A stretch of 64,000 bases of DNA from Dehalococcoidia bacterium (GCA_042408205.1 JBHOQK010000011.1:6348-70347), one strand, 5' to 3'. Shown: positions 9,065 to 39,238, counted from the first letter of the stretch. Numbers and translations: made by a program. The notes: generated by a model not told the origin, from the letters alone.

Positions 9065-9076
9065 TTTTCTCCTTAC

Positions 9077-11827: not shown

Positions 11828-11951
11828 CCCAATTATCCCTATATTTAAATTTAAAGCTCATTTTAAATATAACTTGTGAACTTGTCAATAGCCCTTGCCA
11901 TTTTATGTCTGATGATATAGTATAATTAGAAAATTTCTGGAGGAAAGGGAA

Positions 11952-12746: not shown

Positions 12747-12793
12747 ACAGTTATTTTTATCCATTTACCTTTAATTTTAGGTTGTTACTTAAA

Positions 12794-12825
12794 GGGACAA
12801 CCAACAGGTTGTCCCTTTTTATTTT
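12794..12825 (+). terminator. Rho-independent terminator after the LivF-like gene.
   Basis: The stem gggacaacc / ggttgtccc flanks the loop aaca and is followed by TTTTTATTTT. Confidence 0.7.
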
Positions 12826-12857
12826 CGGAACCATAACAAATACTTAAGGGGATTATT

Positions 12858-13877: not shown

Positions 13878-13878
13878 A

Positions 13879-15087: not shown

Positions 15088-15109
15088 AAAACAAAAGGAG
15101 GTAAAACTA

Positions 15110-22709: not shown

Positions 22710-24663
22710 TGGTTATAATCCCCCTTTGTTCCAAGTCTTGGCTAACATAATCTAAACCTAATTCATGTAAGGTTTTTTTAGTAGGAATCCCTTCATTATT
22801 CCAGCCTTTAAATTTGTAATATTCATCAAGCAACTTTGCTTCATACTCCGGAAACCTTTTCTTCCAATGGTCTTCTGGCGGACGCTCGTCTTTTCTTCTC
22901 AAACCCCTTCTGACGTTGATAGCTCTAACTAAATTTCGGTTTCTTCGCGTTATTTTCCATAGTTCAGCTTCATCAATATCAAGCCCGGTGGCAAAGGAGA
23001 TTACCTGAGGCAAATTATGTATATGATAAGGAGGCTTTAGAGGAAACGATGATAAACCGGCACAAATACCAGTGCAATCATCTATGTAATGCATTGTCTC
23101 CTGCCAATCAACAAGCTCGCAAACTAAGTCAATAGATGGATAAAAGGGGAAGGAATGTTCTCCGCGAGGCTCCCATTCTAAAATAAATTGCTTAAACCTT
23201 TCATTAGGAACCTGGATCCAATCTTTGACAAACTCCTCTTTCTCCTCCCTGGTAGCAAAAGGAGCTTGAGGCAGATTACCTTCAATTTGGGTGATGCTTA
23301 TTTTTTCTCCAGTAGCATACATGAGATAAAAAATAGGATTTAGCATACCAAGTTTAATGGGCATCTGCTCCAGTTTTTTAGTTGTATTATGGTCATAGGC
23401 TTCTGCCCCTTTACCAATCTGACGCGCTGCCCAATAAACGCCATTAGCCAAAATATCCCCTATCCCTTCTCGCCGGACGATCCGGTCAAGGAGCCAGAAA
23501 AATCTTCCCTCAGGATCAGAGGGCATTCCTGCCATGTCCTGGTCAGTTAAAATGCCTGCCTCATAAAGTTCAAGAGCAAAAGCTATAACTTGAGGCGTTG
23601 AATATCCATCTACTCCATACTCCTGAGCCACACCAGCGATTCTAAAACCGAAATCCAAGTCTAACATGGCTGCCATAGTATACGTCAGTTTGGAATAGCA
23701 TTTCATCATGTATCTTTTAATCGTGGGATGCCTTATTATCCCGCCACATTTAAGGGGACAGTTATAGCAGCTTATCAGCCGTTCTACTGCCTTGTCTTGT
23801 ATCTCTTTCCATGTTTCTGAGGTTTCCTTAGTCCAGAAACCGGTTCTTCTAAGACGAGCATTTCCCCAAGCAAAATTTTCCGTATGCCAGGCTTCATCGT
23901 GGATTGCCATTTCTTGAGGTGCCCCAAGAAAAGCTAAAATGGGCGGTACGCCTTTAATTGGATTTTGTTGCCGCCATTGTATATATTTGAGGATTTCATT
24001 ACATAGGTTAGTAAATTCAGCTGGTCGAGCAATAAAAATGTCCTTTGTACCTCGGACGGCTATAGCCTTCAACTTTTTATCCCCCATAATAGCACCTATC
24101 CCCCCTCGGCTGGCACTAGATCTGCCATGCTCGATAGAGGCAAAATAAACCCTGTTTTCCCCAGCCAGACCAATAGCCGCTACTTGGGCTTTTGGCTCCT
24201 TGAGCTCTTGACGGATAAGCTCTGCCGTTTCCAGACAACCTTTCCCTGCCAGATGCCGAGCATCCCGAATTTCCACTTTATCATTGTTTATCCACAAATA
24301 AACTAAATCGGGAGACTTACCCCGAATAATGATTTTATCGTAGCCAGCATATTTCAGCTCTGGTCCAAAAAATCCCCCCATCATGGAATAGGCCATCAGT
24401 AAAGTTTGGGGCGAAAAAGTAGAAATAATCGTCCGATTAGCTCCAATAGTCGGTGTGCCATCTAAGAGACCGGCGCTAAATATGAGTAAATTATCTGAGG
24501 AAAAGGGCTCAACTTCAGGAGGCACCCTATCCCATAAAATCTTGGCGTTAGTGCCTAAACCTCCTAAATGAAGCTCGGTTAATTTTGGGTCAGTAGTCAC
24601 TCTTTCAATGTTGCCTCGAGATAAATCAATTTCTAAATTAACTCCTGTCTCAGCATACCTCAA
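22696..24663 (-). CDS. bamB: Tungsten aldehyde:ferredoxin-oxidoreductase-family enzyme, most likely the class II benzoyl-CoA reductase active-site subunit BamB or a paralog for another aryl-CoA.
   Basis: The N-terminus MRYAETGVNLEIDL...LGGLGTNAKILWDRVPPEVEPFS...KYAGYDKIIIRGKSPDLVYLWINNDKVEIRD matches the highly conserved BamB N-terminus as recalled from the literature. The protein is 655 aa. It is followed by BamC/D/E/F-like genes in canonical order. Confidence 0.7.
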   Translation of the reverse strand: MRYAETGVNLEIDLSRGNIERVTTDPKLTELHLGGLGTNAKILWDRVPPEVEPFSSDNLLIFSAGLLDGTPTIGANRTIISTFSPQTLLMAYSMMGGFFGPELKYAGYDKIIIRGKSPDLVYLWINNDKVEIRDARHLAGKGCLETAELIRQELKEPKAQVAAIGLAGENRVYFASIEHGRSSASRGGIGAIMGDKKLKAIAVRGTKDIFIARPAEFTNLCNEILKYIQWRQQNPIKGVPPILAFLGAPQEMAIHDEAWHTENFAWGNARLRRTGFWTKETSETWKEIQDKAVERLISCYNCPLKCGGIIRHPTIKRYMMKCYSKLTYTMAAMLDLDFGFRIAGVAQEYGVDGYSTPQVIAFALELYEAGILTDQDMAGMPSDPEGRFFWLLDRIVRREGIGDILANGVYWAARQIGKGAEAYDHNTTKKLEQMPIKLGMLNPIFYLMYATGEKISITQIEGNLPQAPFATREEKEEFVKDWIQVPNERFKQFILEWEPRGEHSFPFYPSIDLVCELVDWQETMHYIDDCTGICAGLSSFPLKPPYHIHNLPQVISFATGLDIDEAELWKITRRNRNLVRAINVRRGLRRKDERPPEDHWKKRFPEYEAKLLDEYYKFKGWNNEGIPTKKTLHELGLDYVSQDLEQRGIITSEEN

Positions 24664-25523
24664 TTTTTACCCCCTATTTTCTGATAGTCGTTAAATACGG
24701 AATCAAAATACTTATTGGCTTTGTCAGCTAAAAGATTATGATATTCTCGGAATAAAGCTGCAGCTTGAGGACGCAACCAATCATCAGGTAACAGTTCCTT
24801 AGGCAAGTCAGGGTCAAAAAAAGGAAATTTACGGTATTCGTGAATAAGCATAAACCTTTCCACAAAACACTCACTATCTTCAATAATTTCCCCGCGACGA
24901 AGGCGCTCTAAATGTTTTTCCAATTTAGGCTGATATTTAGCAATGAAAGCAGCATATTTCTCCTGGATTTTTGTCAAATTCCAACATCGAGTCACTATAC
25001 GCCGGGGGTCAGTAAAACCCTGATGTTTGGCTTGAAAGATTTCAACATATTCCCGGATTTGGAGAGAATCGACTAATTCCTCAACCTCTTTAGTTAAATC
25101 ATAAGGAGAAATCCAGGTAGCCTCACTCAAAGCGCCATATCCCATCCAGCTTAATTCTTGACGTAAACGGTTTCTTATCTCTCGCTTGTTTTCCGGGATA
25201 GAGTAAGTAACAATATACCACACTCCTTCCCAGTGATTATCTTTCCGCTTAAAGATACGCTCAGCTCCCTTAACCAAAAGGTCATTTCCTTTAGGGGTTA
25301 ATGAATAAAAGCTCTTTTTACCTATCCGCCTCGCTTTTAATAAACCTATCCGGCACATCCGGGATACTGCTGACCGTATAGCCTGCTCCGATAATCCAAA
25401 GTTAGATAGTATCCGGATTAGACTACCAATCCCAATTTCACCCCCCCTATGGCGAATATAATCCCCATATAAGGTAAGTATGGTGGATTGAGGACGCAAT
25501 AGATTTATAGTTTTATATGTCAT
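24660..25523 (-). CDS. paaX: PaaX-family transcriptional regulator (aryl-CoA-responsive repressor type).
   Basis: The N-terminal winged helix and PaaX-like core are recognisable (LRPQSTILTLYGDYI...GIGSLIRILSNFGLSEQAIRSAVSRM). The ATGA stop/start overlap with bamB places it in the same transcription unit. Confidence 0.65.
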   Translation of the reverse strand: MTYKTINLLRPQSTILTLYGDYIRHRGGEIGIGSLIRILSNFGLSEQAIRSAVSRMCRIGLLKARRIGKKSFYSLTPKGNDLLVKGAERIFKRKDNHWEGVWYIVTYSIPENKREIRNRLRQELSWMGYGALSEATWISPYDLTKEVEELVDSLQIREYVEIFQAKHQGFTDPRRIVTRCWNLTKIQEKYAAFIAKYQPKLEKHLERLRRGEIIEDSECFVERFMLIHEYRKFPFFDPDLPKELLPDDWLRPQAAALFREYHNLLADKANKYFDSVFNDYQKIGGKN

Positions 25524-25570: not shown

Positions 25571-25790
25571 TTACCTTGATTTGTCAACTTTTCCATTTAG
25601 TCTTTATGAGAGGTTAAAAATAAGAGCTTTGTACTAGGATAGACTTTTCAGGGTTTAACCAAAAAAACAGAGGAGCAATTTTATCGCTGGGCAAAAGGTG
25701 ACTGAGCCACATCTAATTAATTTCAGTCAATATTTTGGTGATTTAACAAACCTTCTTTTGGGTATATGCTCGATAATTTAAATCGCCATC

Positions 25791-25820
25791 TTGACAAGCA
25801 ACTCGTTGGTAAAGCATAAT
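25791..25820 (+). promoter_or_regulatory. Sigma-70-like promoter (TTGACA-N18-CATAAT) for the plus-strand thiolase/DUF35 operon.
   Basis: A consensus -35 and a near-consensus -10 lie ~60 bp upstream of the ATG at 25882. The RBS AAAGGAGG is present. Confidence 0.4.
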
Positions 25821-25881: not shown

Positions 25882-27036
25882 ATGCAACGTCGGGTAGCTA
25901 TAATCGGTGTTGGTTACACCCCCTTTCGGTCAATAACTCCCGATATTTCTTTTAAAGAAATGATGTTTGAAGCCGCCCAAAAAGCTTATGAAGATGCCGG
26001 TGTCTGCCCTCAGCACGATATTGACGCTTTTGTCACCTGTGGGGACGACTTTACTCATGGCAGAAGCATTTTCAATATTCATACTCCGGATAATCTTGGA
26101 GCAGTGCTTAAGCCTATTCACACTCTCTCTGCTGAAGGTATTTATGGTCTGGCAGATGCTTACATGCTAATAAATACTGGTTTAGTCGATATTATGGCGG
26201 TAGAATCCCACAGTAAAGCCTCAAACATCCTTACCCCCTATTACTTAATTGCTCATGCTATGGATCCAATTTATAACAAACCCTTGGGTTATAATCCTTA
26301 TTTTATTGCTGGTATGGAAATGAACCGTTATATGTTTGAAAGTGGGACAACCAAAGAACAGTGTGCTTTAGTTTCAGTCAAAAATAAAGCAAATGCTTTA
26401 CTTAATCCTTTAGCTGCCCATGGGGATAAGATAACAGTAGAAGATGTCTTTAACTCGGAAATGATGTTTTATCCTCTAAACCGTTTAGATATAAGTCCTC
26501 CCGCTGATGGTGGTATTGTCATGGTTTTAGCTTGTGAGGAAAAAGCCAAGATTTTATGTGAGAAACCAATATGGATAAGAGGTGTTGGCTGGTGTTCGGA
26601 TGCTCCGAGTTTAGAGACAAGGGAGTGGGGAGAAGCTGTGTATGCTCGGTTAGCCGGTGAAATGGCATATAAAATGGCGGGGATAAAAAACCCAAGAAAA
26701 GAAATTGATTTTGCTGAAGTAGATGACACTTTCTCATACAAAGAACTTCAACATCTGGAAGCTTTAAAACTCTGTCGCCCTGGAGAAGCTGGCTTTATGG
26801 TGGCTGAAGGCGCAACTCAAAGGGAAGGCGAGTTTCCGGTAAATGTCTCCGGGGGAAGTTTAGGTATTGGCTGGTTATATGAAGCTACAGGCCTGCAAAG
26901 AGTTTTAGAGGTAGTGCTCCAGCTCCGGGGTGAAGCCGGTAAAAGACAATTACCCAACGTCAAAATAGGTTTAGCCCAATCATGGCGAGGTATCCCCGCC
27001 AATAGCGGGGCAGTAATAATTTTAAGCAATGAGTAA
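25882..27036 (+). CDS. SCP-x-type thiolase (paralog 1 of a tandem pair).
   Basis: The N-terminus RVAIIGVGYTPF is thiolase-like. The gene is followed by a second thiolase and two DUF35 genes. Confidence 0.75.
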   Translation: MQRRVAIIGVGYTPFRSITPDISFKEMMFEAAQKAYEDAGVCPQHDIDAFVTCGDDFTHGRSIFNIHTPDNLGAVLKPIHTLSAEGIYGLADAYMLINTGLVDIMAVESHSKASNILTPYYLIAHAMDPIYNKPLGYNPYFIAGMEMNRYMFESGTTKEQCALVSVKNKANALLNPLAAHGDKITVEDVFNSEMMFYPLNRLDISPPADGGIVMVLACEEKAKILCEKPIWIRGVGWCSDAPSLETREWGEAVYARLAGEMAYKMAGIKNPRKEIDFAEVDDTFSYKELQHLEALKLCRPGEAGFMVAEGATQREGEFPVNVSGGSLGIGWLYEATGLQRVLEVVLQLRGEAGKRQLPNVKIGLAQSWRGIPANSGAVIILSNE

Positions 27037-27048
27037 AAGGAGGAAAAA

Positions 27049-28206
27049 ATGCGTAAGGTTGCTATTGTTGGTGCCGGCATGACCAAATTCATGCGACGAG
27101 CTCAGGAAACCGGGAAGGAATTGGCTTGGCAAGCTGCCAAGATGGCTCTTGACTCTTGTGAGTTAACTTTAAAAGATGTAGATTGTGTAGTAATGGGTTC
27201 AGCCCCTGATGCCTTTGATATGGTTCACCTGAAGGCTGAATATCTGAGTGATGGTGCTGGAGCCTGGAGAAAGCCTTATGTGAGGGGTTTTCTTGGTGGT
27301 GGCACCGGTGTCTTTACCGCCTGTCAAGCTTGGTATCATGTAGCTTCAGGACTATTTGATATCTGTTTAGCTGTAGCTGAGGAGAAGATGTCTTCATGTA
27401 TGCCCCATCCCCAGGGAGCCTTTGTTACCTGCTGGGATCAGTTTACCGAAAGCCCCTTGGGGACAAGCCTTCTCTGGTTCTTTGCTTGGGAAATGAACCG
27501 GTATATGACTGTCCATGGTATTACTGAACGAGAAATAGCTTTGGTCTCAGTTAAAAATAAGAAAAATGCCCTAGACCATCCTTGTGCTCAATTAGCTGCT
27601 GAAATTACCGTAGATGATGTGATGAATTCAGAAATTATGGCCTGGCCAGTAAAGAGACTGGATGTTAGTCCGACCAGCGACGGAGCCGTAGCTTTGGTTT
27701 TTGCTTCCGAAAATATCGCTAAACGGATTACTGATAAACCAGTTTGGGTCTTAGGGGTAGGCTGGTGTCTCGATACTATGTATATTGGACAAAGGGACCT
27801 TTATTATCCCAAATACGTGGAGTATGCAGCTCGGATGGCTTACAATATGGCAGGAATTAAAGAGCCCGCTAAAGAAATAGATATTGCTGAACCTTATGAT
27901 CCTTTTGACTATAAAGAGCTTCACAATGCAGAAGGACTTCTTCTTTGTGGCAAAGGCGAAGCAGTAAAGCTTTTGCTCGATGGAGTGACTCAAAGAACAG
28001 GTCGTCAGCCTTGGTGCCCTTCAGGAGGGCTATTAGGGGTAGGCAACGCTATTGCAGCTGCTGGCTTAATGAAGGTAGCCGAACTTTTTTGGCAATTGCG
28101 GGGTGAGGCGGGTAAAAGACAAGTGCCAGGAAAACCAAGGAAGGGGGTAGCTCAAGCTTGGGGAGATGAGATGCAAGTAGGCACCGTTATCGTAGTAGGA
28201 ATATAA
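27049..28206 (+). CDS. SCP-x-type thiolase (paralog 2 of a tandem pair).
   Basis: KVAIVGAGMTKF and the ~385-aa size fit the family. Its stop lies 13 nt after the first thiolase, with an RBS. Confidence 0.75.
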   Translation: MRKVAIVGAGMTKFMRRAQETGKELAWQAAKMALDSCELTLKDVDCVVMGSAPDAFDMVHLKAEYLSDGAGAWRKPYVRGFLGGGTGVFTACQAWYHVASGLFDICLAVAEEKMSSCMPHPQGAFVTCWDQFTESPLGTSLLWFFAWEMNRYMTVHGITEREIALVSVKNKKNALDHPCAQLAAEITVDDVMNSEIMAWPVKRLDVSPTSDGAVALVFASENIAKRITDKPVWVLGVGWCLDTMYIGQRDLYYPKYVEYAARMAYNMAGIKEPAKEIDIAEPYDPFDYKELHNAEGLLLCGKGEAVKLLLDGVTQRTGRQPWCPSGGLLGVGNAIAAAGLMKVAELFWQLRGEAGKRQVPGKPRKGVAQAWGDEMQVGTVIVVGI

Positions 28207-28216
28207 AGGAGGAACC

Positions 28217-28720
28217 ATGAGCGAAAAAATAAAAGTCTGGCCAGGAACCTCTCTTAGCGAAGAGGATATAAAGGAGAAGAAAGTCTTATTAACAGAATGG
28301 TACCCTAATCTTAAATATGCTTGGGATGCCGGTATTGGTTACGGCAGGTATTTTGCTGAGCTAAAAAAGGGCAGAATTATAGGCACAAAATGTCATAAAT
28401 GCCACCGAGTGTTACTCCCTGCCAGAGTTTTTTGTGAGTGGTGTTTTCGGACAGTAGACGAATGGGTCTATCTACAAGATACCGGTACTATTAATACTTT
28501 CTCCATTGCTTATACTGGTACTATGGCTGAACGATTAACTGAGCCACGTATTCCAGCACTAATTGAAATTGACGGCTCGGGGGGAGTAGCTATTATGCAT
28601 CTCATCGGCGAAGTTGACCCCTGGAAAGTAAAAATTGGGATGAGAGTCAAAGCAGTTTGGAAACCAGAACCAGAGCGGGAAGGTGCCATAACTGATATAA
28701 AATACTGGAAACCGATTTAG
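28217..28720 (+). CDS. DUF35 OB-fold/Zn-ribbon protein (BbsA-like thiolase partner), copy 1.
   Basis: The ribbon CHKCHRVLLPARVFCEWC is present. The protein is 167 aa. Confidence 0.75.
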   Translation: MSEKIKVWPGTSLSEEDIKEKKVLLTEWYPNLKYAWDAGIGYGRYFAELKKGRIIGTKCHKCHRVLLPARVFCEWCFRTVDEWVYLQDTGTINTFSIAYTGTMAERLTEPRIPALIEIDGSGGVAIMHLIGEVDPWKVKIGMRVKAVWKPEPEREGAITDIKYWKPI

Positions 28721-28729
28721 GAGGTGAAG

Positions 28730-29206
28730 ATGCCTTTAGAGAAGTTGACTCAAGTTGGTCAAACTAAACCATGGTTTGGTGAAATTCCCGTATATGCCCA
28801 ATATACTTTCGGTATTGCTGGGGAAAGGTTCTTCCGAGAGATTAAAGATAATGGCAGAATTATGGGGGCAAAATGTGACAAATGTAACCTTGTTTATCTC
28901 CCACCTAGGATTTATTGCGAGCGTTGTTTTAGCGAGTTGACTGAATGGGTAGAAATACCAAATAAAGGCGTAGTTCATACTTTTAGTGTTTCCTATGTAG
29001 ATTTAGATGGCAACCGATTAAGCCAGCCAGTAATTATAGCTTTAGTCAAATTTGATGGCATTCATGGGGGGCTGGTACATCGCCTTGGGGAGATAGAACC
29101 GGAAAAGGTAAAGATTGGCATGTCTGTGGAAATAGTCTTTAAGCCTAAAGGCGAGAGAAATGGTTCAATTCTTGACATAAAATACTTCAAACCACAAGCA
29201 AAATAA
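28730..29206 (+). CDS. DUF35 OB-fold/Zn-ribbon protein, copy 2.
   Basis: The ribbon CDKCNLVYLPPRIYCERC is present. The ATG at 28730 with AGGAGG 6 nt upstream is preferred over the GTG at 28724. Confidence 0.7.
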   Translation: MPLEKLTQVGQTKPWFGEIPVYAQYTFGIAGERFFREIKDNGRIMGAKCDKCNLVYLPPRIYCERCFSELTEWVEIPNKGVVHTFSVSYVDLDGNRLSQPVIIALVKFDGIHGGLVHRLGEIEPEKVKIGMSVEIVFKPKGERNGSILDIKYFKPQAK

Positions 29207-29253
29207 CTTAGTAGCTACTATCCTTTCCTCTTTTTGATAACTGATAACGAATT

Positions 29254-30495
29254 ATGAAACGAAGGGTTGTCGTAACTGGTATGGGGATGGTTACCCCCTT
29301 AGGTATTGGGGTAGAAAAAAACTGGAAAGCTTTATGTGAAGGCAAATCAGGCATTGGTCCTATCACCCGTTTTGATGCGTCTTTTCTTAAATGCCAGGTA
29401 GCTGGGGAAGTTAAGGATTTCCACCCAGAAGACTTCATGGACAAAAAATTTATTCGAAGGTTTGACCCCTTTATTCAATATGCAGTAGCAGCATCCCGGA
29501 TGGCAGTAGAAGACGCCGGGCTTAAAATAGATGTCAGTAATCAAGATAGAGTTGGTGTGGTAATAGGAACTGCCTGTGGAGCTTGTTCTTCTTTCGAGAC
29601 CGCTCATAGCCTGATAGTTCAAGGAAGATATGGAGATGTTTCTCCCTTTTTTGTAGTCAATGCTTCAGGCAATTTAGTAGCTGGGGTAGTCGCCATCCAG
29701 TTTGGAGCTAGAGGTCCACATCATTGTCTCATGGAAGCTTGTGCTGCTGGGACTAACGCCATTGGCTTGGCTTTCAAACTTGTCCAGCAAGGGAAAGCCG
29801 ATGTGGTTATTGCGGGTGGTTCTGATGCCGGAATTACCCCTACTTGGTTTGCTTCTTTGGATGCTATTGGAGCCCACACTACTAAAAGAAATAAGCAACC
29901 TGAGAAAGCCTGTCGCCCCTTTGACAGGGACAGAGACGGTTTTATTACCAGTGAAGGGAGCGGGGTAGTCATTGTCGAAGCATTAGACATAGCTTTAAGA
30001 CGAGAAGCTAAAATTTATGGTGAAATTATTGGCTTTGGGAATAATTGTGATGCTTACCATTATACTTCTCCATCACCAGAAGGAGAGGTTCCAGCTAAAT
30101 GTATGAAGTTAGCTTTAGATGACGCAGGCATAAAGCCTGAAGAAGTAGATTATATTAATGCCCACGGCACCTCAACTATTCTTAACGATAAAGTCGAGAC
30201 TAAAGCCATAAAGAAGGTTTTCGGTGTTCACGCTAAGAAGTTACTCATCAGTTCCAATAAATCGATGATTGGGCATATGTGGGGGGCAGCTGGTGTTGTG
30301 GAGGCTATCTTTGCTTTACTCACCATAAAGCACGATATTGTCCCGCCAACTATCAACTATGAATTTCCTGACCCAGAATGTGATCTGGATTATGTGCCTA
30401 ATAAGGCAAGAAAAGCTAAAGTCAGGATAGCCCTTTCCAATTCTTTTGGTTTTGGTGGTATTAATGGATGTTTGGTTTTAAAGGAATTCCCCTAA
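29254..30495 (+). CDS. Beta-ketoacyl synthase of KAS I/II (FabF/FabB) type, with a complete catalytic triad.
   Basis: The Cys is in MEACAAGTNAIG. The two His residues are in AHGTST and GHMWGAAG. The C-terminal SFGFGGINGCLVL is typical of the family. The protein is 413 aa. Confidence 0.8.
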   Translation: MKRRVVVTGMGMVTPLGIGVEKNWKALCEGKSGIGPITRFDASFLKCQVAGEVKDFHPEDFMDKKFIRRFDPFIQYAVAASRMAVEDAGLKIDVSNQDRVGVVIGTACGACSSFETAHSLIVQGRYGDVSPFFVVNASGNLVAGVVAIQFGARGPHHCLMEACAAGTNAIGLAFKLVQQGKADVVIAGGSDAGITPTWFASLDAIGAHTTKRNKQPEKACRPFDRDRDGFITSEGSGVVIVEALDIALRREAKIYGEIIGFGNNCDAYHYTSPSPEGEVPAKCMKLALDDAGIKPEEVDYINAHGTSTILNDKVETKAIKKVFGVHAKKLLISSNKSMIGHMWGAAGVVEAIFALLTIKHDIVPPTINYEFPDPECDLDYVPNKARKAKVRIALSNSFGFGGINGCLVLKEFP

Positions 30496-30516
30496 TTTTT
30501 AGTGAGGTGAAAGACA

Positions 30517-31662
30517 ATGGACTTTGAATTAAAGGAGCATCACCTAGTTTTGAAAAAAATGGTACGAGATTTTGCTGAAAAGGAAATAGAGCCAGTGATA
30601 GCCGAATTTGACGAAGCTGAGAAATTCCCTCTGGAAATTATCCAGAAAATGGGTGATTTAGGGTTATTGGGTTTGCCTTTTCCCGAGGAATATGGAGGAG
30701 GTGGGGCTGACCATCTTTCCTATGTCATTCTACTTGAAGAGCTGGGTAGAGTAGATTTAGGGATAGCTTTAACAGTAGATGCTGATTGTACTTTAGCTGG
30801 CTTTCCCCTTAATCGTTTTGGCAACGAAGAACAGAAAAGAAAATGGCTCACCCCCTTAGCCCAAGGGAAAATTTTGGGTTGCTTTGGTTTAACCGAGCCA
30901 GGCGCTGGTTCCGATGCTGGTGGGGGTATGACTACTACAGCCACCTTACAAGGAGGAGAGTGGGTTATCAATGGCACTAAAGCCTTCATAACTAATGCCG
31001 GTGCCCCTAATTGTGCTTTTTGTGTTGTAGCCGCAGTAACTGGGAAACGCCCTGATGGAAAAAAGGAAATAAGTAATTTCATTGTCCCTCATGGAACACC
31101 AGGTTTTTCTATTTCTAAACCTTACCGAAAGTTAGGTTTCCGAACTTCCGACACCAGAGAGCTTTCCTTTGATAATTGTCGAATACCTAAGGAGAACTTA
31201 TTGGGGGAAAGGGGAGCCGGCTTCCGACAATTCTTAACTACTCTTGACGAAGGGCGACTGACTATCGCGGCGATGAGTGTGGGTGCAGCTCAGCGCTGCC
31301 TTGAGCTATCCACAAAATATGCTAAGGAAAGAGTTCAGTTTGGGCAACCTATCTTTAACTTCCAAGCTATTCAGTTTAAGCTTTCAGATATGGCAATGAA
31401 TGTAGAATTAGCTCGTCTGATAACTTATAAGGCTGCCTGGCTTGAAGACCAGAATAAACCCTTTACCAAAGAGGTAGCTATGGCAAAACTTTTTGCTTCT
31501 GAAATAGCCCAGAAGGCAGCTGCTGACGCTATTCAAATTCATGGAGGAATTGGCTTTACTAAAGAATATCCGTTGGAGAGATTTTACCGAGACTGCCGAT
31601 TATTAACTATTGGTGAAGGAACCTCTGAAATTATGCGCTTAATAATTGCCCGCTACCTTTAA
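30517..31662 (+). CDS. Acyl-CoA dehydrogenase (FAD).
   Basis: ACAD N-, middle and C-domains are present. The catalytic Glu lies in IGEGTSEI near the C-terminus. The protein is 381 aa. Confidence 0.85.
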   Translation: MDFELKEHHLVLKKMVRDFAEKEIEPVIAEFDEAEKFPLEIIQKMGDLGLLGLPFPEEYGGGGADHLSYVILLEELGRVDLGIALTVDADCTLAGFPLNRFGNEEQKRKWLTPLAQGKILGCFGLTEPGAGSDAGGGMTTTATLQGGEWVINGTKAFITNAGAPNCAFCVVAAVTGKRPDGKKEISNFIVPHGTPGFSISKPYRKLGFRTSDTRELSFDNCRIPKENLLGERGAGFRQFLTTLDEGRLTIAAMSVGAAQRCLELSTKYAKERVQFGQPIFNFQAIQFKLSDMAMNVELARLITYKAAWLEDQNKPFTKEVAMAKLFASEIAQKAAADAIQIHGGIGFTKEYPLERFYRDCRLLTIGEGTSEIMRLIIARYL

Positions 31663-31673: not shown

Positions 31674-33635
31674 TTACTCTTTACTTAACTCTTCCTTTAT
31701 CCTCTCATAAAAGTCTAGTGATTCAGGATTAATTAAGGCATCTCGGTTTGTCACTGGTCTATTATGCAAAATATTAGTAACGGCACTTTCTACCTTTTTC
31801 ATATTGAAGGTATACGGAATATCTGGTACTGCAATTATCTTAGCTGGAACATGTCTTGGAGAAGCTTTCTCTCGTAGAGTTTTTTTAATCTTGTTTTCCA
31901 AATCTGGTGTTAGCTGGGAGCCAGCAGCTAATTTGACAAAAAGGATGATACGCTGATCCCCCTCCCAGCTTTGCCCTATAGCTAAACTATCAACAATTTC
32001 CGGTAGCCCTTCGACAACACTGTATATTTCGGCAGTACCTATTCGAACACCGGAAGGCTTCAACACCGAATCAGAACGCCCATAAAAAGTAATACCTCCA
32101 GTATCACTATGGATTAAAATATAATCGCCATGGCGCCAAACATTAGGATAAAACTCAAAATAAGCTGCCCTATATTTACTCCCATCAGGGTCATTCCAAA
32201 AATAAAGGGGCATAGACGGAGCCGCAGCTTCACAGACCAGCTCCCCTTCTTGGTCAAGGACAGAGTTGCCTTTCTCATCATAAGCTTTGATTTTCATGCC
32301 TAAAGCTGGACCCTGGAGTTCGCCAGCATATACCGGTTGAATAGGAGTCCCAGCAGCAAAACAGCCATTAATATCAGTACCACCCGAGATTGAATTAAAA
32401 TGCAGGTCTTTCTTGACTTCTTGATATATCCACTCAAAGCCTTCAGCTGAAAGGGGCGAACCTGTTTGCGATATTTCTTTTAAGGAAGATAAGTCGTAAT
32501 TCTGGGCTGGCTTAAACTTTTCACTCCTAAGAAAGTTAATATAACTGGCGCTACAGCCGAACATCGTCACCTTTTCGTCTTGAATTAATTTCCACATAGC
32601 ACCAGGGTCAGGATAATTAGGGTTACCATCATACAAGACTATAGTATTCCCTGTCGCCAGAGAACTTAACATCCAGTTCCACATCATCCAGCTACAGGTG
32701 GTTATGTAAAAATGAACGTCTTCCCGTTTTAAGTCAGTATGGATTATCAATTCCTTCAGGTGATTGATAAGAACCCCGGCAGCACCCTGAACCATACATT
32801 TGGGCTTACCTGTAGTCCCGGAAGAAAACATGATATACACAGGATGGTCTGAGGGTAATTGCTCAAATTCAATCTCAGGGGTTTTTCCTTTAGCTAAAAA
32901 ATCCTCCCAATGTATAGAGTTAGGAATGAAACTGATATCAGGTTTTTCTTCCCCATATTGAACTACTACAACTTTTTCAATCGACGGTATTGCCTTAACA
33001 ATTTCAGCAGCATTGGAAAGGGTATTAAAACGCTTCCCTTTATAATAATATCCATTAACTGTGAACAAAACCTTAGGTTCGATTTGACCAAAGCGGTCTA
33101 TGGCTGCTGCCGGACCGATATCAGTAGCGCAAGAAGACCATATAGCCCCTACGCTGGTACTGGCAAGCATAGCCGCAGCTGTTTCTATCATATTAGGCAT
33201 ATAGGCAGCTACTCTGTCCCCAGGCTGAACTCCCATTTGACGTAAAGATTTGGCTAAACGGGCAACCAAATCATAAAGCTCAGCATAACTTATCTTTTTA
33301 GTTATTTGTGTTTCACCTCTAAATATAAAAGCAGTGTGGTCATCTCTATATCTGAGAAGATTTTCAGCGAAGTTTAACTTTGCCCCAATAAACCATTGGG
33401 CTCCAGGCATTTTGTAAACATTGTCAACAACAACATCATACTTCCGAGACGCTTTTATCCCCACGAAGTCCCATATTGAAGCCCAAAAGTCAGGTATTTT
33501 TTCTATTGACCATTGGTAGAGCTCAGGGTAAGTGCGAAAATTTTTTCCATATCGTTTATTTACGAAATTAATATATTTGGTTATATTTGCTTGCTTTTTT
33601 CGTTCTTCAGACGGCTCCCAAAGTAACTTACCCAT
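31674..33635 (-). CDS. Acetoacetyl-CoA synthetase (acetoacetate--CoA ligase).
   Basis: The ~650-aa length, the characteristic N-terminus (LWEPSEERKKQANITKYINFVNKRYG...YPELYQWSIEKIPDFW) and the AMP-binding motif SSGTTGKPK support the call. Confidence 0.8.
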   Translation of the reverse strand: MGKLLWEPSEERKKQANITKYINFVNKRYGKNFRTYPELYQWSIEKIPDFWASIWDFVGIKASRKYDVVVDNVYKMPGAQWFIGAKLNFAENLLRYRDDHTAFIFRGETQITKKISYAELYDLVARLAKSLRQMGVQPGDRVAAYMPNMIETAAAMLASTSVGAIWSSCATDIGPAAAIDRFGQIEPKVLFTVNGYYYKGKRFNTLSNAAEIVKAIPSIEKVVVVQYGEEKPDISFIPNSIHWEDFLAKGKTPEIEFEQLPSDHPVYIMFSSGTTGKPKCMVQGAAGVLINHLKELIIHTDLKREDVHFYITTCSWMMWNWMLSSLATGNTIVLYDGNPNYPDPGAMWKLIQDEKVTMFGCSASYINFLRSEKFKPAQNYDLSSLKEISQTGSPLSAEGFEWIYQEVKKDLHFNSISGGTDINGCFAAGTPIQPVYAGELQGPALGMKIKAYDEKGNSVLDQEGELVCEAAAPSMPLYFWNDPDGSKYRAAYFEFYPNVWRHGDYILIHSDTGGITFYGRSDSVLKPSGVRIGTAEIYSVVEGLPEIVDSLAIGQSWEGDQRIILFVKLAAGSQLTPDLENKIKKTLREKASPRHVPAKIIAVPDIPYTFNMKKVESAVTNILHNRPVTNRDALINPESLDFYERIKEELSKE

Positions 33636-34210: not shown

Positions 34211-37087
34211 TTAGACTCCTGAAGAATAGACCTTTTCTTTTAGTATTTGGCGCAGGTAATATCCAGTAAGAGAGGTTTCTACTTGGGCAACTTCTTCAGG
34301 TGTTCCTGTAGCTATGACATAGCCGCCTTCATCACCAGCGCCCGGACCAAGGTCAATAATGTAGTCAGCATTCTTAATTACATCGGGGTGATGCTCAATA
34401 ATAATGACTGTATTACCACTATCAACCAAGCGGTGGAGCACATTAAGCAGGCAAGCTACATCGGCAAAAGACAATCCTGTAGTTGGTTCATCAAGAATAT
34501 AAAGAGTTTTCCCAGTAGCCCGACGGGATAGTTCTGTAGCTAACTTCACTCTTTGGGCTTCGCCTCCGGAAAGGGTGGGTGCCGGCTGTCCTAATTTAAT
34601 ATAACCTAAACCAACATCATGAAGCGTTTGGAGTTTACTTTTAATCTGAGGAAAATTTTCAAAAAAGGCGAGAGCTTCATCAACACTCATATCCAAGATG
34701 TCAGCAATGTTCTTGCCTTTAAATCTGATTTCCAGAGCTTCCCGGTTATAGCGTTTACCCTTACATACCTCGCAGGGAACGGTAACGTCAGGGAGGAATT
34801 GCATTTCAATTTGCACATAACCCTCCCCTTGGCAAGCTTCACAGCGTCCTCCCTTAACATTGAAGGAAAAGCGACCTGGTAGATAGCCACGCATTCGGGA
34901 CTCAGGAAGAGTAGCAAAAAGTTCCCGAATAGGGGTAAAAGCCCCAGTATAGGTAGCTGGATTACTTCGGGGAGTTCGCCCGATAGGTGATTGGTCAATA
35001 TTGATTACTTTATCAATATGTTCAATACCAGTAATACGGTCAAACTTCCCAGGTCGGTCTTTAGCTCCATAAAATATTTGAGCTAATTTCTTATAAAGAA
35101 CTTCGTTAATCAAAGTACTTTTGCCGCTGCCTGATACGCCAGTGATACAGACAAACCTACCCAAAGGAATAGCAACATCAATCCCTTTCAAATTATTTTC
35201 CCGAGCTCCATAAATTGTCAGCCACTTACCCGAACCTGAACGACGTCTTTGGGGTAAAGAGATTTTTTTAGCCCCACTCAAATATTGCCCGGTCACAGAG
35301 TGAGGACAGTTCATGATATCCTGAATCGTCCCTGTAGCGACGACCCACCCTCCTTTTTCCCCAGCCCCTGGTCCTAGGTCAATAATATAATCAGCAGCCC
35401 TCATCACAGCTTCATCATGCTCCACCACAAGTATAGTATTTCCTAAATCTCTAAGCTTTTTCAGAGTGTCAATAAGTCTGGAAGCATCTGCTAGATGAAG
35501 CCCAACAGTCGGCTCATCACAAATATAAAGCACCCCCATAAGGCCGCTACCAATTTGAGTGGCTAATCTAATTCTCTGAGCCTCGCCGCCACTCAAGGTG
35601 CGGGAAGGACGGTCCAAAGTAAGATATCCTAAGCCTATATCTTTAAGGAAACCAAGGCGAGCCTCAATTTCCTTTAGAATCTGGTGAGCTATGGTTAGCT
35701 CTCGGGGAGTCAGGCGAGGTTTACCATCAGCCTCCCCAGTAAGAGACTTTATCCAATCTAAAGCTTCCCCTACAGAGAGAGCTGTTACATCCATAATATT
35801 TTTCCCATCTATAGTCACCGCTAAAGCTTCTGGTTTAAGTCTTTTTCCGTGACAGGCAGGGCAAGGATAAGAAGACATATAACGCTCAATATCCGCCCGA
35901 ACTGTCTCGGACTCTGTCTCTCGGTAGCGGCGTTCCAGGTAAGGAATGACACCTTCAAAATCCGTGTAATACTCGTGAATTCTACCATAGCGGTCTTCAT
36001 ATTTAGCTCGGACAGTTTCTCCCCCATTGCCATAAAGAATCAAACGAAGGATCCCAGGATTTAAGTCACGTACGGGTACAGAGAGAGAAAAACCATAGCG
36101 TCGGGCTAAAGATTCTAAAATACTCATATACCACAGGTTGGTAGAGCCATGTCGAACCCAGGGCTGAATGGCTCCTTCAGCTAAACTCAGATCTTTGTTA
36201 GGAATGACCAGCTCCGGGTCAATCTCCAGTTTACATCCGAGACCAGTGCAGGCAGGACAAGCCCCATGGGGGCTGTTAAAACTAAAAGTCCTCGGGGCGA
36301 TTTCCCCTATACTAACGCCACAATAGACACAAGCAAAATGTTCAGAAAAAAGCAATTCGGGTCCGTCTAAAATAGAGATCAAAACCACCCCACCACCTAA
36401 TTTCAAAGCTGTTTCCACAGAATCAGCGATCCGATTAGTATCCCCCCCTTGTCCAATTTGTAAACGGTCGACTACAGCTTCTATGGTATGCCTTTTGTTT
36501 TTATCCAGCTGAAACTCTTCGGAAAGATCATAAATACGCCCATCAATTCGAACTCGAACAAATCCGGCTTTCCTTAAGTCTTCAAAAACTGTCTGATGCT
36601 CACCTTTCCTGTCTTTGACTAATGGGGCTAAAATCATAATCCGACTTCCAGCGGGTATTTCTAAGACTGCATCCACAATTTGTTGTACCGTTTGTTTAGA
36701 AATTTGGCGACCACACTTAGGACAATGAGGTTTGCCGATGCGAGCAAAAAGAAGACGCAAATAATCATAAACTTCAGTTACCGTCCCCACAGTGGAGCGG
36801 GGATTATGGGGGGGTCCTTTCTGATCGATAGATATAGCCGGGCTCAATCCTTCAATATAATCCACATCCGGCTTTTCCATTTGTCCTAAAAATTGGCGAG
36901 CATAGGCAGACAAAGATTCTAAATAACGGCGCTGCCCTTCGGCATAAATAGTGTCAAAGGCTAAAGAGCTCTTCCCTGAACCAGAAACGCCAGTAATGAC
37001 CACCAGCTTATCTCGGGGAATAATCACATCTATATTTTTGAGGTTATGTTCCCTTGCCCCTTTGACAATAATACAATCTAAAGCCAT
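34211..37087 (-). CDS. uvrA: Excinuclease ABC subunit A.
   Basis: The canonical N-terminus ([57 protein letters not shown]) is present. There are two ABC modules and zinc fingers. The start is assigned to M at 37087 (MALDCII) by homology rather than to the ORF start at 37126. Confidence 0.9.
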
Positions 37088-37210
37088 TTCAAAGTTTATT
37101 GTAGCATGGGCTAAAGGGGGCAACAAGACAAAGAAGTTTCTCCCTAAACTAAACTAAGGCATAATTCGTTTATAAATGAATGCGAGCATCAACTTAAAGA
37201 GAGTATTAAG

Positions 37211-38488: not shown

Positions 38489-38610
38489 ACCGAGCAATAA
38501 AGCAAACTTTTTGGGGTCTTATTTGGTACCAAAGGCGACTTTCACCTTGTGGCGGACTTATGCTACTATTTTGTCAGTCTAAACAGACAAAAACTTAATG
38601 AGAGGGGTAA

Positions 38611-39235: not shown

Positions 39236-39238
39236 ACA

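What the first reader, a model, noticed from the sequence alone, without database searches (positions are those of the whole stretch)
25882..31662. Divergent operon: two thiolases, two DUF35 proteins, a catalytically complete FabF-type condensing enzyme and an ACAD, with no hydratase or hydroxyacyl-CoA dehydrogenase
Thiolase/DUF35 pairs (BbsAB-like) normally cleave alpha-substituted or bulky 3-oxoacyl-CoAs. Here a tandem thiolase pair and a tandem DUF35 pair imply a hetero-oligomeric thiolase. It is directly followed by a KAS I/II enzyme with an intact Cys-His-His triad, which is unexpected in a CoA-dependent catabolic cluster. An acyl-CoA dehydrogenase completes the operon. The set lacks the crotonase-family enzymes of the canonical benzoyl-CoA lower pathway. 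This suggests a distinct ring-fission or retro-Claisen chemistry, or a degradative/biosynthetic hybrid, sharing the control region with the Bam-like operon.
Basis: partly seen in the sequence, partly recalled or inferred. Interest (0 to 1): 0.6.

Follow-up and report, generated by a model that had tools for sequence, protein, structure and literature searches.

The report
Cysteine-less thiolase-like/DUF35 four-gene module
The six genes are real, but the two "thiolases" have lost every thiolase catalytic residue and, with two zinc-ribbon partner proteins, form an uncharacterised four-gene unit conserved across many anaerobic bacteria and archaea, while the fatty-acid synthase gene and the aromatic-degradation neighbours are local accidents of gene order.

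Summary
All six + strand ORFs exist at the stated coordinates, with the stated domains. FabF has an intact Cys163-His304-His341 triad and the ACAD is a short-chain type.

Neither "thiolase" can be a thiolase. Both lack the nucleophilic Cys, the HDCF His/Cys and the GHP His. Two genuine thiolases in the same window keep all three.

thl1-thl2-dufA-dufB keeps its gene order wherever the contig covers it, in 80 species-level loci from at least eight phyla, including archaea. A natural thl2-dufA-dufB fusion protein also exists.

thl2 is the most conserved subunit (70-93% identity). It carries an invariant Gly84 / Tyr283 (YDPF) / Asn333 signature that partly matches the thiolase-fold retro-aldolases Sal and Ltp2.

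Recurrent neighbours are a short-chain ACAD, acetoacetate-CoA ligase, family-I CoA-transferases, a B12 acyl-CoA mutase and true thiolases. Bam genes and FabF never recur. FabF is a housekeeping KAS II whose ancestral position is next to uvrA.

Best reading: a heteromeric, Cys-independent C-C lyase, probably aldolase-type, acting in short-chain (C4-C5) acyl-CoA metabolism. The chemistry is inferred, not shown.

The link to the benzoyl-CoA pathway and the degradative/biosynthetic hybrid idea are not supported.

The parts
25791..25820 (+). Best sigma-70-like promoter candidate for the operon (TTGACA-18-CATAAT, 11 of 12 matches), about 60 nt upstream of thl1
   Evidence: This is a consensus match only. 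An inverted repeat TGGTGATTTAA/TTAAATCGCCA (25736-25788) lies just upstream.
25882..27036 (+). thl1: degenerate thiolase-fold subunit (384 aa) with Ser83, DDTF (Asp281) and Trp331 where a thiolase has Cys, HDCF and GHP-His. It is the less conserved partner.
   Evidence: (PRK06066, 474 bits, just below the 516 cut-off). Orthologues are 50-86% identical.
27049..28206 (+). thl2: the most conserved subunit (385 aa) and probable catalytic subunit. Invariant Gly84 (nucleophile position), Tyr283 in YDPF, Asn333 in GVGN, and the WGD373 loop.
   Evidence: (PRK06065, 618 bits, above the 455 cut-off). Orthologues are 70-93% identical across phyla. AF2 model pLDDT 81.5 with a thiolase fold.
28217..28720 (+). 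dufA: DUF35 protein (Zn ribbon with Cys59/62/73/76, plus an OB fold)
   Evidence: It always follows thl2 and is fused to thl2 in P0242.
28724..29206 (+). dufB: second DUF35 protein (Cys51/54/65/68), 48% identical to dufA
   Evidence: It always follows dufA.
29254..30495 (+). FabF (KAS II), catalytically complete. Probably co-transcribed here, but not part of the conserved module: a housekeeping gene embedded by rearrangement.
   Evidence: Absent from all 80 loci. Synteny with L088 is FabF-uvrA-MBL-PPase. Homologues sit in FAS II clusters. No Shine-Dalgarno sequence upstream.
30517..31662 (+). Short-chain acyl-CoA dehydrogenase (SCAD/Bcd type, Glu367), the commonest operon partner of the module
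   Evidence: best PDB matches 7szv, C. difficile Bcd 5ol2 and rat SCAD. ACADs that are 49-61% identical follow the module in about 24 loci from several phyla.
31674..33635 (-). Acetoacetate-CoA ligase, convergent here. In the closest relatives it lies on the same strand directly after dufB.
   Evidence: TIGR01217, 871 bits against a cut-off of 521. L001-L004 have the order module-AACS-ACAD.

Best explanation
Genes 1-4 (thl1, thl2, dufA, dufB) encode one hetero-oligomeric complex of the SCP2/archaeal-thiolase-plus-DUF35 kind. It probably has a thl1-thl2 heterodimer core with one DUF35 protein on each side.

The thiolase mechanism is abolished: there is no acyl-enzyme Cys, no HDCF acid/base Cys and no GHP His. 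thl2 is the functional subunit. Its Gly84 / Tyr283 (YDPF) / Asn333 signature is invariant. It resembles the thiolase-fold retro-aldolases (CtSal: Gly at the nucleophile position, Tyr302 as base; TcLtp2: Tyr294 in YDHF). thl1 is a degenerate structural partner.

I infer that the complex makes or breaks a C-C bond without covalent catalysis. The most likely reaction is retro-aldol or aldol chemistry on a short 3-hydroxyacyl-CoA, such as 3-hydroxybutyryl-CoA, 3-hydroxyisovaleryl-CoA or HMG-CoA, giving acetyl-CoA plus an aldehyde or ketone. It would work next to a short-chain acyl-CoA dehydrogenase and acetoacetate-activating enzymes.

FabF is an ordinary housekeeping KAS II caught inside the transcription unit by a local rearrangement. 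The position opposite the PaaX-BamB operon is specific to this lineage.

Shown: gene content, loss of catalytic residues, conservation, synteny and the origin of FabF. Inferred: complex architecture, aldolase-type chemistry and substrate size.
For: Loss of catalytic residues:
- HMMER alignments to solved thiolases 7yvy, 6esq and BbsB show it.
- An internal control agrees. The window's own DUF35-associated thiolases at 1257-2447 and 59401-60588 keep Cys / HDCF / GHP, while thl1 and thl2 do not.
- There is no invariant Cys in 59 orthologues of either protein.

Conservation and complex formation:
- At least 591 relatives were found in species-representative genomes. The top 80 are 70-93% identical to thl2 and come from Dehalococcoidia, Anaerolineae, Actinomycetota, Krumholzibacteriota, Symbiobacterium, Deltaproteobacteria, Bathyarchaeia and Methanofastidiosia.
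- The order thl1-thl2-dufA-dufB is kept wherever the contig covers it.
- P0242 is a natural thl2-dufA-dufB fusion.

Aldolase lead:
- PMC12329534 reports Gly at the nucleophile position and Tyr of YDCY/YDHF as the catalytic base in Sal and Ltp2.
- thl2 has an invariant EPYDPFDYKELH motif.
- The Gly/Tyr/Asn signature is the commonest among the 100 nearest full-length 50%-identity cluster representatives (25 clusters, against 19 with Cys/His/His).
- A paralogous unit in L094 has the order MaoC hydratase, alpha-like subunit, Gly/Tyr/Asn beta subunit, DUF35. It lies next to an ACAD and a CoA ligase. This is the ACAD-hydratase-aldolase logic of the steroid side-chain systems.

Short-chain context:
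- SCAD/Bcd-type ACAD, following the module in about 24 loci.
- Acetoacetate-CoA ligase.
- Family-I CoA-transferases.
- A B12 mutase with MeaB in the same operon in Deltaproteobacteria and Bathyarchaeota.
- True thiolases.
- A MaoC homologue in L005 and L020.

FabF as an interloper.
Against: - thl2 is not in the Sal/Ltp2 clade. It is closer to true archaeal thiolases (E 2e-39) than to Ltp2 (2e-19) or Sal (9myr, 6e-18).
- The second catalytic residue of the known aldolases is missing. thl2 has Pro285 where Sal has Cys304 and Ltp2 has His296. It has Asn333 where Ltp2 has Tyr344.
- Tyr at this position also occurs in PhlC, which is a Cys-dependent acyltransferase. The signature is therefore not diagnostic.
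- No hydratase is adjacent in the window or in most loci.
- The neighbouring acetoacetate-CoA ligase and CoA-transferases would fit a 3-oxoacyl-CoA substrate as well as a 3-hydroxyacyl-CoA.
- Many modules stand alone among housekeeping genes, so context evidence is thin.
- No biochemical data exist for any member.
Confidence: 0.45

Rival explanations
1. First reader's model. A hetero-oligomeric BbsAB-like true thiolase cleaves bulky or alpha-substituted 3-oxoacyl-CoAs of the benzoyl-CoA lower pathway. FabF and the ACAD form a degradative/biosynthetic hybrid co-regulated with the Bam operon.
For: - The operon is physically divergent from a genuine PaaX-BamBCDE-type operon.
- An inverted repeat sits upstream of the thl1 promoter and could be a repressor site.
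- FabF is probably co-transcribed, with 47- and 21-nt gaps and no terminator.
Against: - Both proteins lack all thiolase catalytic residues.
- The BbsA and BbsB models score far below their cut-offs.
- None of the 80 related loci has FabF or a BamB orthologue beside the module.
- FabF's position next to uvrA is ancestral.
- The exact E. coli PaaX operator pattern is absent.
Confidence: 0.05
2. The complex acts on 3-oxoacyl-CoA, for example acetoacetyl-CoA, by a Cys-independent mechanism. Candidates are hydrolytic retro-Claisen cleavage, direct attack by CoA, or decarboxylation of a beta-keto or malonyl thioester as weakly seen in TbSLP. It would not be an aldolase.
For: - Acetoacetate-CoA ligase directly follows the module in the closest relatives, and 3-oxoacid-type CoA-transferases do so in others.
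- The paralogous Gly/Tyr/Asn unit in L093 lies between hydantoinase A/B proteins (the family that includes ketone carboxylases) and an AMP-forming ligase. In ketone-degradation pathways that slot is usually filled by a thiolase.
- TbSLP (YDCF motif) binds acetoacetyl- and malonyl-CoA (PDB titles; PMC12329534).
Against: - No precedent exists for efficient Cys-independent thiolysis in this fold.
- Hydrolysis would waste a thioester in energy-limited anaerobes.
- Genuine thiolases are often encoded nearby, which would make a second 3-oxoacyl-CoA-cleaving enzyme redundant.
Confidence: 0.2
3. The complex is a non-catalytic pseudo-enzyme. It would be a scaffold or an acyl-CoA-binding or channelling platform, as DUF35 is in the archaeal thiolase/HMGCS and fatty-acid synthase complexes. 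It would organise the ACAD or other enzymes.
For: - All canonical catalytic residues are lost in both subunits.
- DUF35 proteins are documented scaffolds (bioRxiv 10.1101/2024.07.05.601840; PMC12960953).
- The module often lacks metabolic neighbours.
Against: - thl2 is 70-93% identical across bacteria and archaea. Conservation is strongest exactly in the former active-site loops: GGGTGVF, EEKMS..PH, EPYDPFDYKELH, PSGGLLGVGN and WGD.MQ. This argues for a conserved active site.
- The Gly/Tyr/Asn signature recurs in paralogous families that are only 35-45% identical.
Confidence: 0.15
4. The module is functionally tied to type II fatty-acid synthesis, for example by supplying or editing a short acyl primer. 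The FabF insertion here would then be meaningful.
For: - FabF sits inside the operon in this genome.
- In 14-16 Anaerolineae loci, FabD and FabG lie 4-6 kb upstream of the module.
Against: - The Anaerolineae loci belong to one lineage, and unrelated genes (Asp23, NusB, TatC) separate FabG from the module.
- No other phylum shows fab genes near the module.
- The FabF orthologue in the nearest relative is a stand-alone gene next to uvrA with no module beside it.
Confidence: 0.07

Closest known systems
Thiolase-fold steroid side-chain aldolases with a DUF35 partner: CtSal-Shy(DUF35) (PDB 9myr) and TcLtp2-ChsH2(DUF35) (PDB 6ok1)
   Same: - Same fold (Foldseek TM 0.81-0.84).
- A DUF35 partner is needed.
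- Gly replaces the nucleophilic Cys, as in CtSal.
- Tyr replaces the His of HDCF (YDPF against YDCY/YDHF).
- An ACAD is encoded alongside.
- The paralogous unit in L094 also has a MaoC hydratase.
   Different: - Not the same clade: E 2e-19 and 6e-18, against 2e-39 to true archaeal thiolases.
- The second catalytic residue is absent (Pro285, Asn333).
- The core is a heterodimer of two paralogues, not a homodimer.
- There are two free-standing DUF35 proteins, not a DUF35 domain fused to a hydratase.
- The context is short-chain acyl-CoA metabolism in anaerobes, not steroid catabolism.
[quoted passage not shown]
   Same: These are the closest solved relatives by sequence and fold (about 30% identity, TM 0.86-0.91). 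They also have a DUF35 partner and a C4 acyl-CoA context.
   Different: They keep Cys, HDCF and GHP and are real thiolases. thl1 and thl2 keep none of these. The module has no HMGCS subunit.
Benzoylsuccinyl-CoA thiolase BbsAB (PDB 7pxp)
   Same: A thiolase-fold subunit plus a Zn-finger DUF35 subunit in an anaerobe.
   Different: - BbsB has the catalytic Cys and His residues.
- The NCBIfam BbsB and BbsA models score far below their cut-offs.
- There is no bbs context, and none of the related loci has a BamB orthologue beside the module.
Mycobacterial/rhodococcal Ltp3-Ltp4 (paired thiolase-like proteins proposed as aldol-lyases for C24-branched sterol side chains; recalled from memory, literature list)
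   Same: Two adjacent paralogous thiolase-like genes proposed to act together as a C-C lyase.
   Different: Not compared by sequence here. That system is steroid-specific and actinobacterial. Ltp3/Ltp4 biochemistry is itself unresolved.
Trypanosoma brucei SCP2-thiolase-like protein TbSLP (PDB 5ab4-5ab7)
   Same: A Cys-less thiolase-fold protein with a YDCF motif. It binds acetoacetyl-CoA and malonyl-CoA, and its function is unknown or debated.
   Different: About 21% identity. It is a homodimer with no DUF35 partner, and it keeps the Cys of the YDCF motif.

Membership tests
Thiolase (SCP2/archaeal type, EC 2.3.1.9/2.3.1.16) | Thiolase alpha-beta-alpha-beta-alpha fold | tested here: met
   Pfam PF22691/PF00108. 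The AF2 model of thl2 matches thiolases with TM 0.8-0.9.
Thiolase (SCP2/archaeal type, EC 2.3.1.9/2.3.1.16) | Nucleophilic Cys in the CxS loop | tested here: not met
   thl2 has Gly84, invariant as GGGTGVF. thl1 has Ser83, which is not conserved. The window's own true thiolases show Cys in the same alignment column.
Thiolase (SCP2/archaeal type, EC 2.3.1.9/2.3.1.16) | HDCF motif (oxyanion-hole His and acid/base Cys) | tested here: not met
   thl2 has YDPF and thl1 has DDTF. The control thiolases have HDCF.
Thiolase (SCP2/archaeal type, EC 2.3.1.9/2.3.1.16) | GHP His | tested here: not met
   thl2 has GVGN (Asn333) and thl1 has GIGW (Trp331). The control thiolases have GHP.
BbsAB benzoylsuccinyl-CoA thiolase | Scores above the NCBIfam equivalog cut-offs for BbsB and BbsA | tested here: not met
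   BbsB 102.5 and 139.1 bits against 750. BbsA 19.4 and 26.6 bits against 250.
BbsAB benzoylsuccinyl-CoA thiolase | Conserved association with anaerobic aromatic (bbs/bam) genes | tested here: not met
   None of the 80 related loci has a BamB orthologue or bbs-type context beside the module. The only AFOR-family hits are 26-29% identical genes several kb away in L046 and L053.
Thiolase-fold retro-aldolases (Sal/Ltp2) | No nucleophilic Cys (Gly in CtSal) | tested here: met
   thl2 Gly84. The feature is taken from PMC12329534.
Thiolase-fold retro-aldolases (Sal/Ltp2) | Catalytic-base Tyr as the first residue of the YDxF/Y motif | tested here: met
   thl2 Tyr283 is invariant in EPYDPF. It is not met in thl1 (DDTF). 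PhlC also has Tyr at this position, so the feature is not exclusive.
Thiolase-fold retro-aldolases (Sal/Ltp2) | Second catalytic residue (Cys304 of YDCY in Sal; Tyr344 at the GHP position in Ltp2) | tested here: not met
   thl2 has Pro285 and Asn333.
Thiolase-fold retro-aldolases (Sal/Ltp2) | DUF35 partner supplied by a MaoC hydratase fusion (ChsH2, Shy) | tested here: not met
   dufA and dufB are free-standing proteins of 167 and 160 aa. A separate MaoC gene is adjacent only in the paralogous unit in L094, and lies distal in L005 and L020.
Thiolase-fold retro-aldolases (Sal/Ltp2) | Retro-aldol activity on a 3-hydroxyacyl-CoA | not testable with these tools
   Needs an enzyme assay.
Beta-ketoacyl-ACP synthase II (FabF) | Score above the TIGR03150 equivalog cut-off and a Cys-His-His triad | tested here: met
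   566.7 bits against 493.75. Cys163, His304 and His341 are present. The best PDB match is B. subtilis FabF 4ls5.
Beta-ketoacyl-ACP synthase II (FabF) | FAS II genomic context (ACP, FabD, FabG/K, PlsX) | tested here: inconclusive
   No such genes are in this window. Homologues at 71-75% identity sit in ACP-FabF-AcpS-FabK-FabD-PlsX clusters. The 82% homologue is a stand-alone gene next to uvrA.
Short-chain acyl-CoA dehydrogenase (SCAD/Bcd) | Three ACAD domains, a catalytic Glu, and closest similarity to SCAD/Bcd | tested here: met
   The Glu367 IGEGT motif is conserved. PDB matches: 7szv 3e-130, Bcd 5ol2 3e-116, rat SCAD 1e-112, against IVD at about 1e-77.
Acetoacetate-CoA ligase | Score above the TIGR01217 equivalog cut-off | tested here: met
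   870.8 bits against 520.9 for window 31674-33635 on the - strand.

The most novel reading that the evidence does not exclude
thl1/thl2/dufA/dufB would be the prototype of a large, unrecognised class of heteromeric, cysteine-less thiolase-fold enzymes. Each would have a Gly/Tyr/Asn beta subunit, a degenerate alpha subunit and one or two DUF35 proteins. They would catalyse aldol-type C-C cleavage or formation in the central short-chain acyl-CoA metabolism of anaerobic bacteria and archaea. An example is 3-hydroxybutyryl-CoA <-> acetaldehyde + acetyl-CoA, or a ketone-releasing equivalent. This would give a thiolase-independent route between C2 and C4 units. These proteins are currently mis-annotated everywhere as acetyl-CoA acetyltransferase.
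Probability: 0.2. Interest if true: 0.8.

Novelty: new variant of a known kind. Interest (0 to 1): 0.6.

Why it matters
- Hundreds of genomes of subsurface and sediment anaerobes carry this module. They include Chloroflexota, Actinomycetota, Krumholzibacteriota, Bathyarchaeia and Methanofastidiosia. The genes are annotated as acetyl-CoA acetyltransferase or "thiolase domain-containing protein".
- Metabolic reconstructions therefore count a thiolase that cannot work as one.
- If the complex is a Cys-independent C-C lyase, it extends the Sal/Ltp2 aldolase idea. That idea would move from a steroid-specific curiosity to a widespread part of anaerobic short-chain acyl-CoA metabolism. It would also offer a compact C-C bond-forming biocatalyst.
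- For this window, the result removes a tempting but wrong link between a FabF gene, a "thiolase" operon and the class II benzoyl-CoA reductase.

Tried and rejected
- **Leucine/isovalerate (Liu-type) pathway, with the module as an HMG-CoA-lyase analogue.** I looked for methylcrotonyl-CoA carboxylase subunits next to the module in L010 and L033. The candidate ORFs turned out to be Nudix, MiaB-like, phosphoglycerate mutase and similar. The ACAD is also closer to SCAD/Bcd than to IVD. This is not excluded as chemistry, but context does not support it.
- **Methylmalonyl-CoA pathway.** The operon-linked mutases have Gln rather than Arg at the MCM Arg207 position, so they are not MCM. The signature residues are from memory.
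- **PaaX operator search.** The pattern TGATTC-N20-35-GAATCA gave no match. Only a loosely similar inverted repeat was found.
- **Exact look-up of the window's FabF.** It failed. The 100% match P0121 gave only the window's own contig and sample.
- **Structure prediction and Foldseek.** They confirmed the fold but cannot separate thiolase from aldolase function.
- **Active-site segment search against the PDB.** It ranked true SCP2 thiolases first, not the aldolases.
- **Literature searches.** The searches combining DUF35, thiolase or thiolase-like, aldolase, Chloroflexi, heterotetramer and catalytic cysteine, and the Ltp3/Ltp4 search, found no description of this module.

Full report
**Observation**

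Gaps between genes are 3-47 nt.

Pfam and NCBIfam confirm the domain calls:
- thl1 and thl2 are thiolase-fold proteins.
- dufA and dufB are DUF35 proteins, each with a four-Cys zinc ribbon and an OB fold.
- FabF passes the TIGR03150 equivalog cut-off (567 bits against 494). It has Cys163, His304 and His341 and is closest to B. subtilis FabF.
- The ACAD has all three ACAD domains and the catalytic Glu367. It is closest to SCAD/Bcd-type enzymes.

The best promoter-like site (TTGACA-18-CATAAT) lies at 25791-25820. No convincing terminator lies inside the unit.

Across a 358-bp intergenic region lies a divergent operon: PaaX, AFOR, Fe-S, HdrD-like, FdhD, HdrA-like, MvhD. Its AFOR is a true BamB homologue (1063 bits, full length, to G. 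metallireducens BamB 4z3w).

No crotonase-family or 3-hydroxyacyl-CoA dehydrogenase gene was found among the window ORFs of at least 120 aa that were scanned.

**The "thiolases" are not thiolases**

HMMER alignments to solved SCP2/archaeal-type thiolases (7yvy, 6esq, BbsB 7pxp) show the substitutions:

| Thiolase feature | thl2 | thl1 |
|---|---|---|
| Nucleophilic Cys | Gly84 | Ser83 |
| HDCF motif | YDPF | DDTF |
| GHP His | Asn333 | Trp331 |

As an internal control I aligned both proteins with the window's two other DUF35-associated thiolases (1257-2447 and 59401-60588) and with Bathyarchaeia thiolases. All of these show Cys, HDCF and GHP in the same columns.

In 59 orthologues of each protein there is no invariant Cys. 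In thl2 the replacement residues and the surrounding former active-site loops are invariant: GGGTGVF, EEKMS..PH, EPYDPFDYKELH, PSGGLLGVGN and WGD.MQ. In thl1 the corresponding region is variable.

An AlphaFold2 model of thl2 (pLDDT 81.5, pTM 0.88) has the expected fold. Its nearest solved structures are:
- P. furiosus and M. thermolithotrophicus thiolases;
- S. tokodaii ST0096;
- SCP2 thiolases and BbsB;
- then 4u4e, Ltp2, PhlC, Sal and TbSLP.

All have TM 0.8-0.9.

**A conserved four-gene module**

A scan of species-representative genomes with thl2 found at least 591 relatives. The best 80 loci are 70-93% identical to thl2. By record title they break down as follows:

| Lineage | Loci |
|---|---|
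| Anaerolineae | 25 |
| Actinomycetota | 13 |
| Dehalococcoidia | 12 |
| Other Chloroflexota | about 11 |
| Krumholzibacteriota | 6 |
| Unclassified bacteria | 6 |
| Symbiobacterium | 2 |
| Deltaproteobacteria | 2 |
| Bathyarchaeia | 2 |
| Methanofastidiosia | 1 |

Wherever a contig covers them, the order thl1-thl2-dufA-dufB is kept. thl2 is the most constrained subunit. Identities are thl2 70-93%, thl1 50-86%, dufA 46-87% and dufB 33-77%.

thl1 and thl2 are 40% identical, and dufA and dufB are 48% identical. A natural 731-aa fusion thl2-dufA-dufB exists (P0242). Together these findings argue for one hetero-oligomeric complex that arose by tandem duplication of a thiolase/DUF35 pair.

**What travels with the module**

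FabF is found in none of the 80 loci, and none has a BamB orthologue. The only AFOR-family hits are 26-29% identical genes several kb away in two loci.

Genes chained to the module on the same strand are:
- a short-chain ACAD in about 24 loci from several phyla, with the ACADs 46-72% identical to each other;
- acetoacetate-CoA ligase in the closest Dehalococcoidia (L001-L004, order module-AACS-ACAD) and in L051;
- family-I (3-oxoacid-type) CoA-transferases in L018, L021, L027, L029, L081 and L082;
- a B12 acyl-CoA mutase with its small subunit, MeaB and an adenosyltransferase, in one operon with the module in two Deltaproteobacteria, an Anaerolineae and a Bathyarchaeote;
- genuine thiolases (L040, L037, L077, L081);
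- an HMGCS-like-DUF35 fusion plus a thiolase, and then a MaoC hydratase (L005, L020).

The window gene 31674-33635 on the - strand is itself an acetoacetate-CoA ligase (TIGR01217, 871 bits against 521).

The operon-linked mutases carry Gln where methylmalonyl-CoA mutase has its carboxylate-binding Arg (signature from memory). They therefore handle neutral C4/C5 acyl-CoAs.

In other genomes the module stands alone among housekeeping genes (L083, L086, L013, L030). The consistent theme is short-chain (C4-C5) acyl-CoA and acetoacetate metabolism, not aromatic ring fission.

**FabF**

The closest FabF relative (82% identity; L088) is a stand-alone gene lying convergent with uvrA, followed by an MBL-fold gene and the H+-pyrophosphatase. 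The window has the same uvrA-MBL-PPase series downstream (34211-41389).

tblastx shows the two regions to be collinear. The exceptions are the ACAD, the inverted AACS, an HD-domain gene and a serpin gene, which are extra in the window.

More distant homologues (71-75%) sit in ACP-FabF-AcpS-FabK-FabD-(ECH)-PlsX FAS II clusters of Dehalococcoidia.

FabF has no Shine-Dalgarno sequence, unlike thl1 and the ACAD.

The simplest history is this. The module-AACS-ACAD block seen in L001-L004 was rearranged around a resident housekeeping fabF next to uvrA. The "unexpected KAS in a catabolic cluster" is thus an accident of gene order.

**Mechanism**

The literature on thiolase-fold aldolases gives the only precedent for this fold working without the Cys (PMC12329534):
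- CtSal has Gly at the nucleophile position. It uses Tyr302 of YDCY as base and Cys304 as acid.
- TcLtp2 uses Tyr294 of YDHF, and Tyr344 at the GHP-His position.
- Both need a DUF35 partner.
- Both act after an ACAD and a MaoC hydratase.

thl2 shares the Gly and the Tyr (YDPF) but not the second catalytic residue (Pro285, Asn333).

The Gly/Tyr/Asn signature is not a quirk of this module. Among the 100 nearest full-length 50%-identity cluster representatives it is the commonest class, with 25 clusters against 19 with Cys/His/His. It recurs in paralogous hetero-pairs with a degenerate alpha-like partner (L026, L094).

One such unit (L094) has the order MaoC hydratase, alpha-like subunit, beta subunit, DUF35. 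It lies beside an ACAD and a CoA ligase, which reproduces the steroid ACAD-hydratase-aldolase logic.

I therefore favour a Cys-independent C-C lyase, most likely retro-aldol or aldol chemistry on a short 3-hydroxyacyl-CoA.

The caveats are real:
- thl2 is phylogenetically nearer to true thiolases than to Sal or Ltp2.
- Tyr at this position also occurs in the Cys-dependent PhlC.
- No hydratase is adjacent in most loci.
- The acetoacetate-activating neighbours fit a 3-oxoacyl-CoA substrate equally well.
- Another paralogous unit (L093) sits between hydantoinase A/B-type proteins and an AMP ligase. A thiolase would be expected in that slot.

A Cys-independent reaction on 3-oxoacyl-CoA and a purely scaffolding role remain live rivals.

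**Novelty**

All database names for these proteins are generic: "thiolase domain-containing protein" or "acetyl-CoA C-acetyltransferase". NCBIfam PRK06065 and PRK06066 carry no function. Six full-text searches found no description of a paired Cys-less thiolase-like plus paired DUF35 unit.

It is a new variant of a known kind, the thiolase-fold/DUF35 complexes, rather than a new category.

**Verdict**

- The gene inventory is confirmed.
- The functional label "thiolase" is wrong.
- The hetero-oligomer idea is supported.
- The links to FabF and to the Bam operon are not supported.
- What remains is an uncharacterised, widely distributed and very conserved module whose chemistry is testable with four recombinant proteins and a handful of acyl-CoAs.

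Noticed in passing
window 31-1245 + 1257-2447 and 57978-59414 + 59401-60588: Two copies of a KAS III/HMGCS-like protein fused to a C-terminal DUF35 domain, each followed by a catalytically complete SCP2/archaeal-type thiolase (Cys, HDCF, GHP). The same pair follows the module in Dehalococcoidia L081, L005 and L020. [quoted passage not shown] I did not check whether the HMGS-like domains here keep that tetrad.
   Followed up: partly
L010 704-2350, L033 6645-8324, L064 6207-7886, L077 12299-13981: B12 acyl-CoA mutase large subunits in one operon with the module have TMY plus LKEYIAQK. That is Tyr at the MCM Tyr89 position and Gln at the MCM Arg207 position. This Tyr/Gln combination matches neither the MCM (Tyr/Arg) nor the ICM (Phe/Gln) signature as I recall them. 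It may be an uncharacterised substrate class.
   Followed up: partly
window 25736-25788: An 11-nt inverted repeat, TGGTGATTTAA ... TTAAATCGCCA, with a 31-nt spacer lies immediately upstream of the -35 of the best thl1 promoter candidate. It loosely resembles the PaaX operator layout. The adjacent divergent gene encodes a PaaX-family regulator (24660-25523). This could be chance in an AT-rich region.
   Followed up: partly
L090 3832-9826 and L091 4397-11245: Dehalococcoidia FAS II clusters read ACP-FabF-(FabF)-AcpS-FabK(NMO)-FabD-crotonase family-PlsX-FabF. A crotonase-family gene sits where FabZ would be expected, and no FabZ or FabG is visible in the cluster.
   Followed up: no
L094 3075-9155: Two divergent paralogous units lie side by side, each with an alpha-like subunit, a Gly/Tyr/Asn beta subunit and one DUF35. 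Around them are a MaoC hydratase, an ACAD, a PaaK-like ligase and a BKACE gene. This is a compact cluster that could serve as a more tractable model for the class.
   Followed up: partly
L093 3185-11181: The operon reads hydantoinase A, hydantoinase B (the acetone/acetophenone carboxylase family), a 302-aa unknown protein, a Gly/Tyr/Asn thiolase-like protein, DUF35 and an AMP-forming ligase. Here a Cys-less thiolase-like protein occupies the slot where a thiolase would be expected in ketone catabolism.
   Followed up: no
window 37211-38488: A serpin gene (425 aa, Pfam Serpin E 1.7e-122) is inserted between uvrA and the MBL-fold gene, relative to the syntenic relative L088.
   Followed up: no
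window 2458-15871: Upstream of the Bam-like operon lie indolepyruvate:ferredoxin oxidoreductase-like genes, a branched-chain-type ABC transporter with an associated 631-aa acyl-CoA ligase, a D-2-hydroxyacid dehydrogenase, a family-III CoA-transferase and an SDR. This set is reminiscent of aromatic amino-acid or aryl-lactate metabolism feeding the PaaX/Bam region.
   Followed up: no
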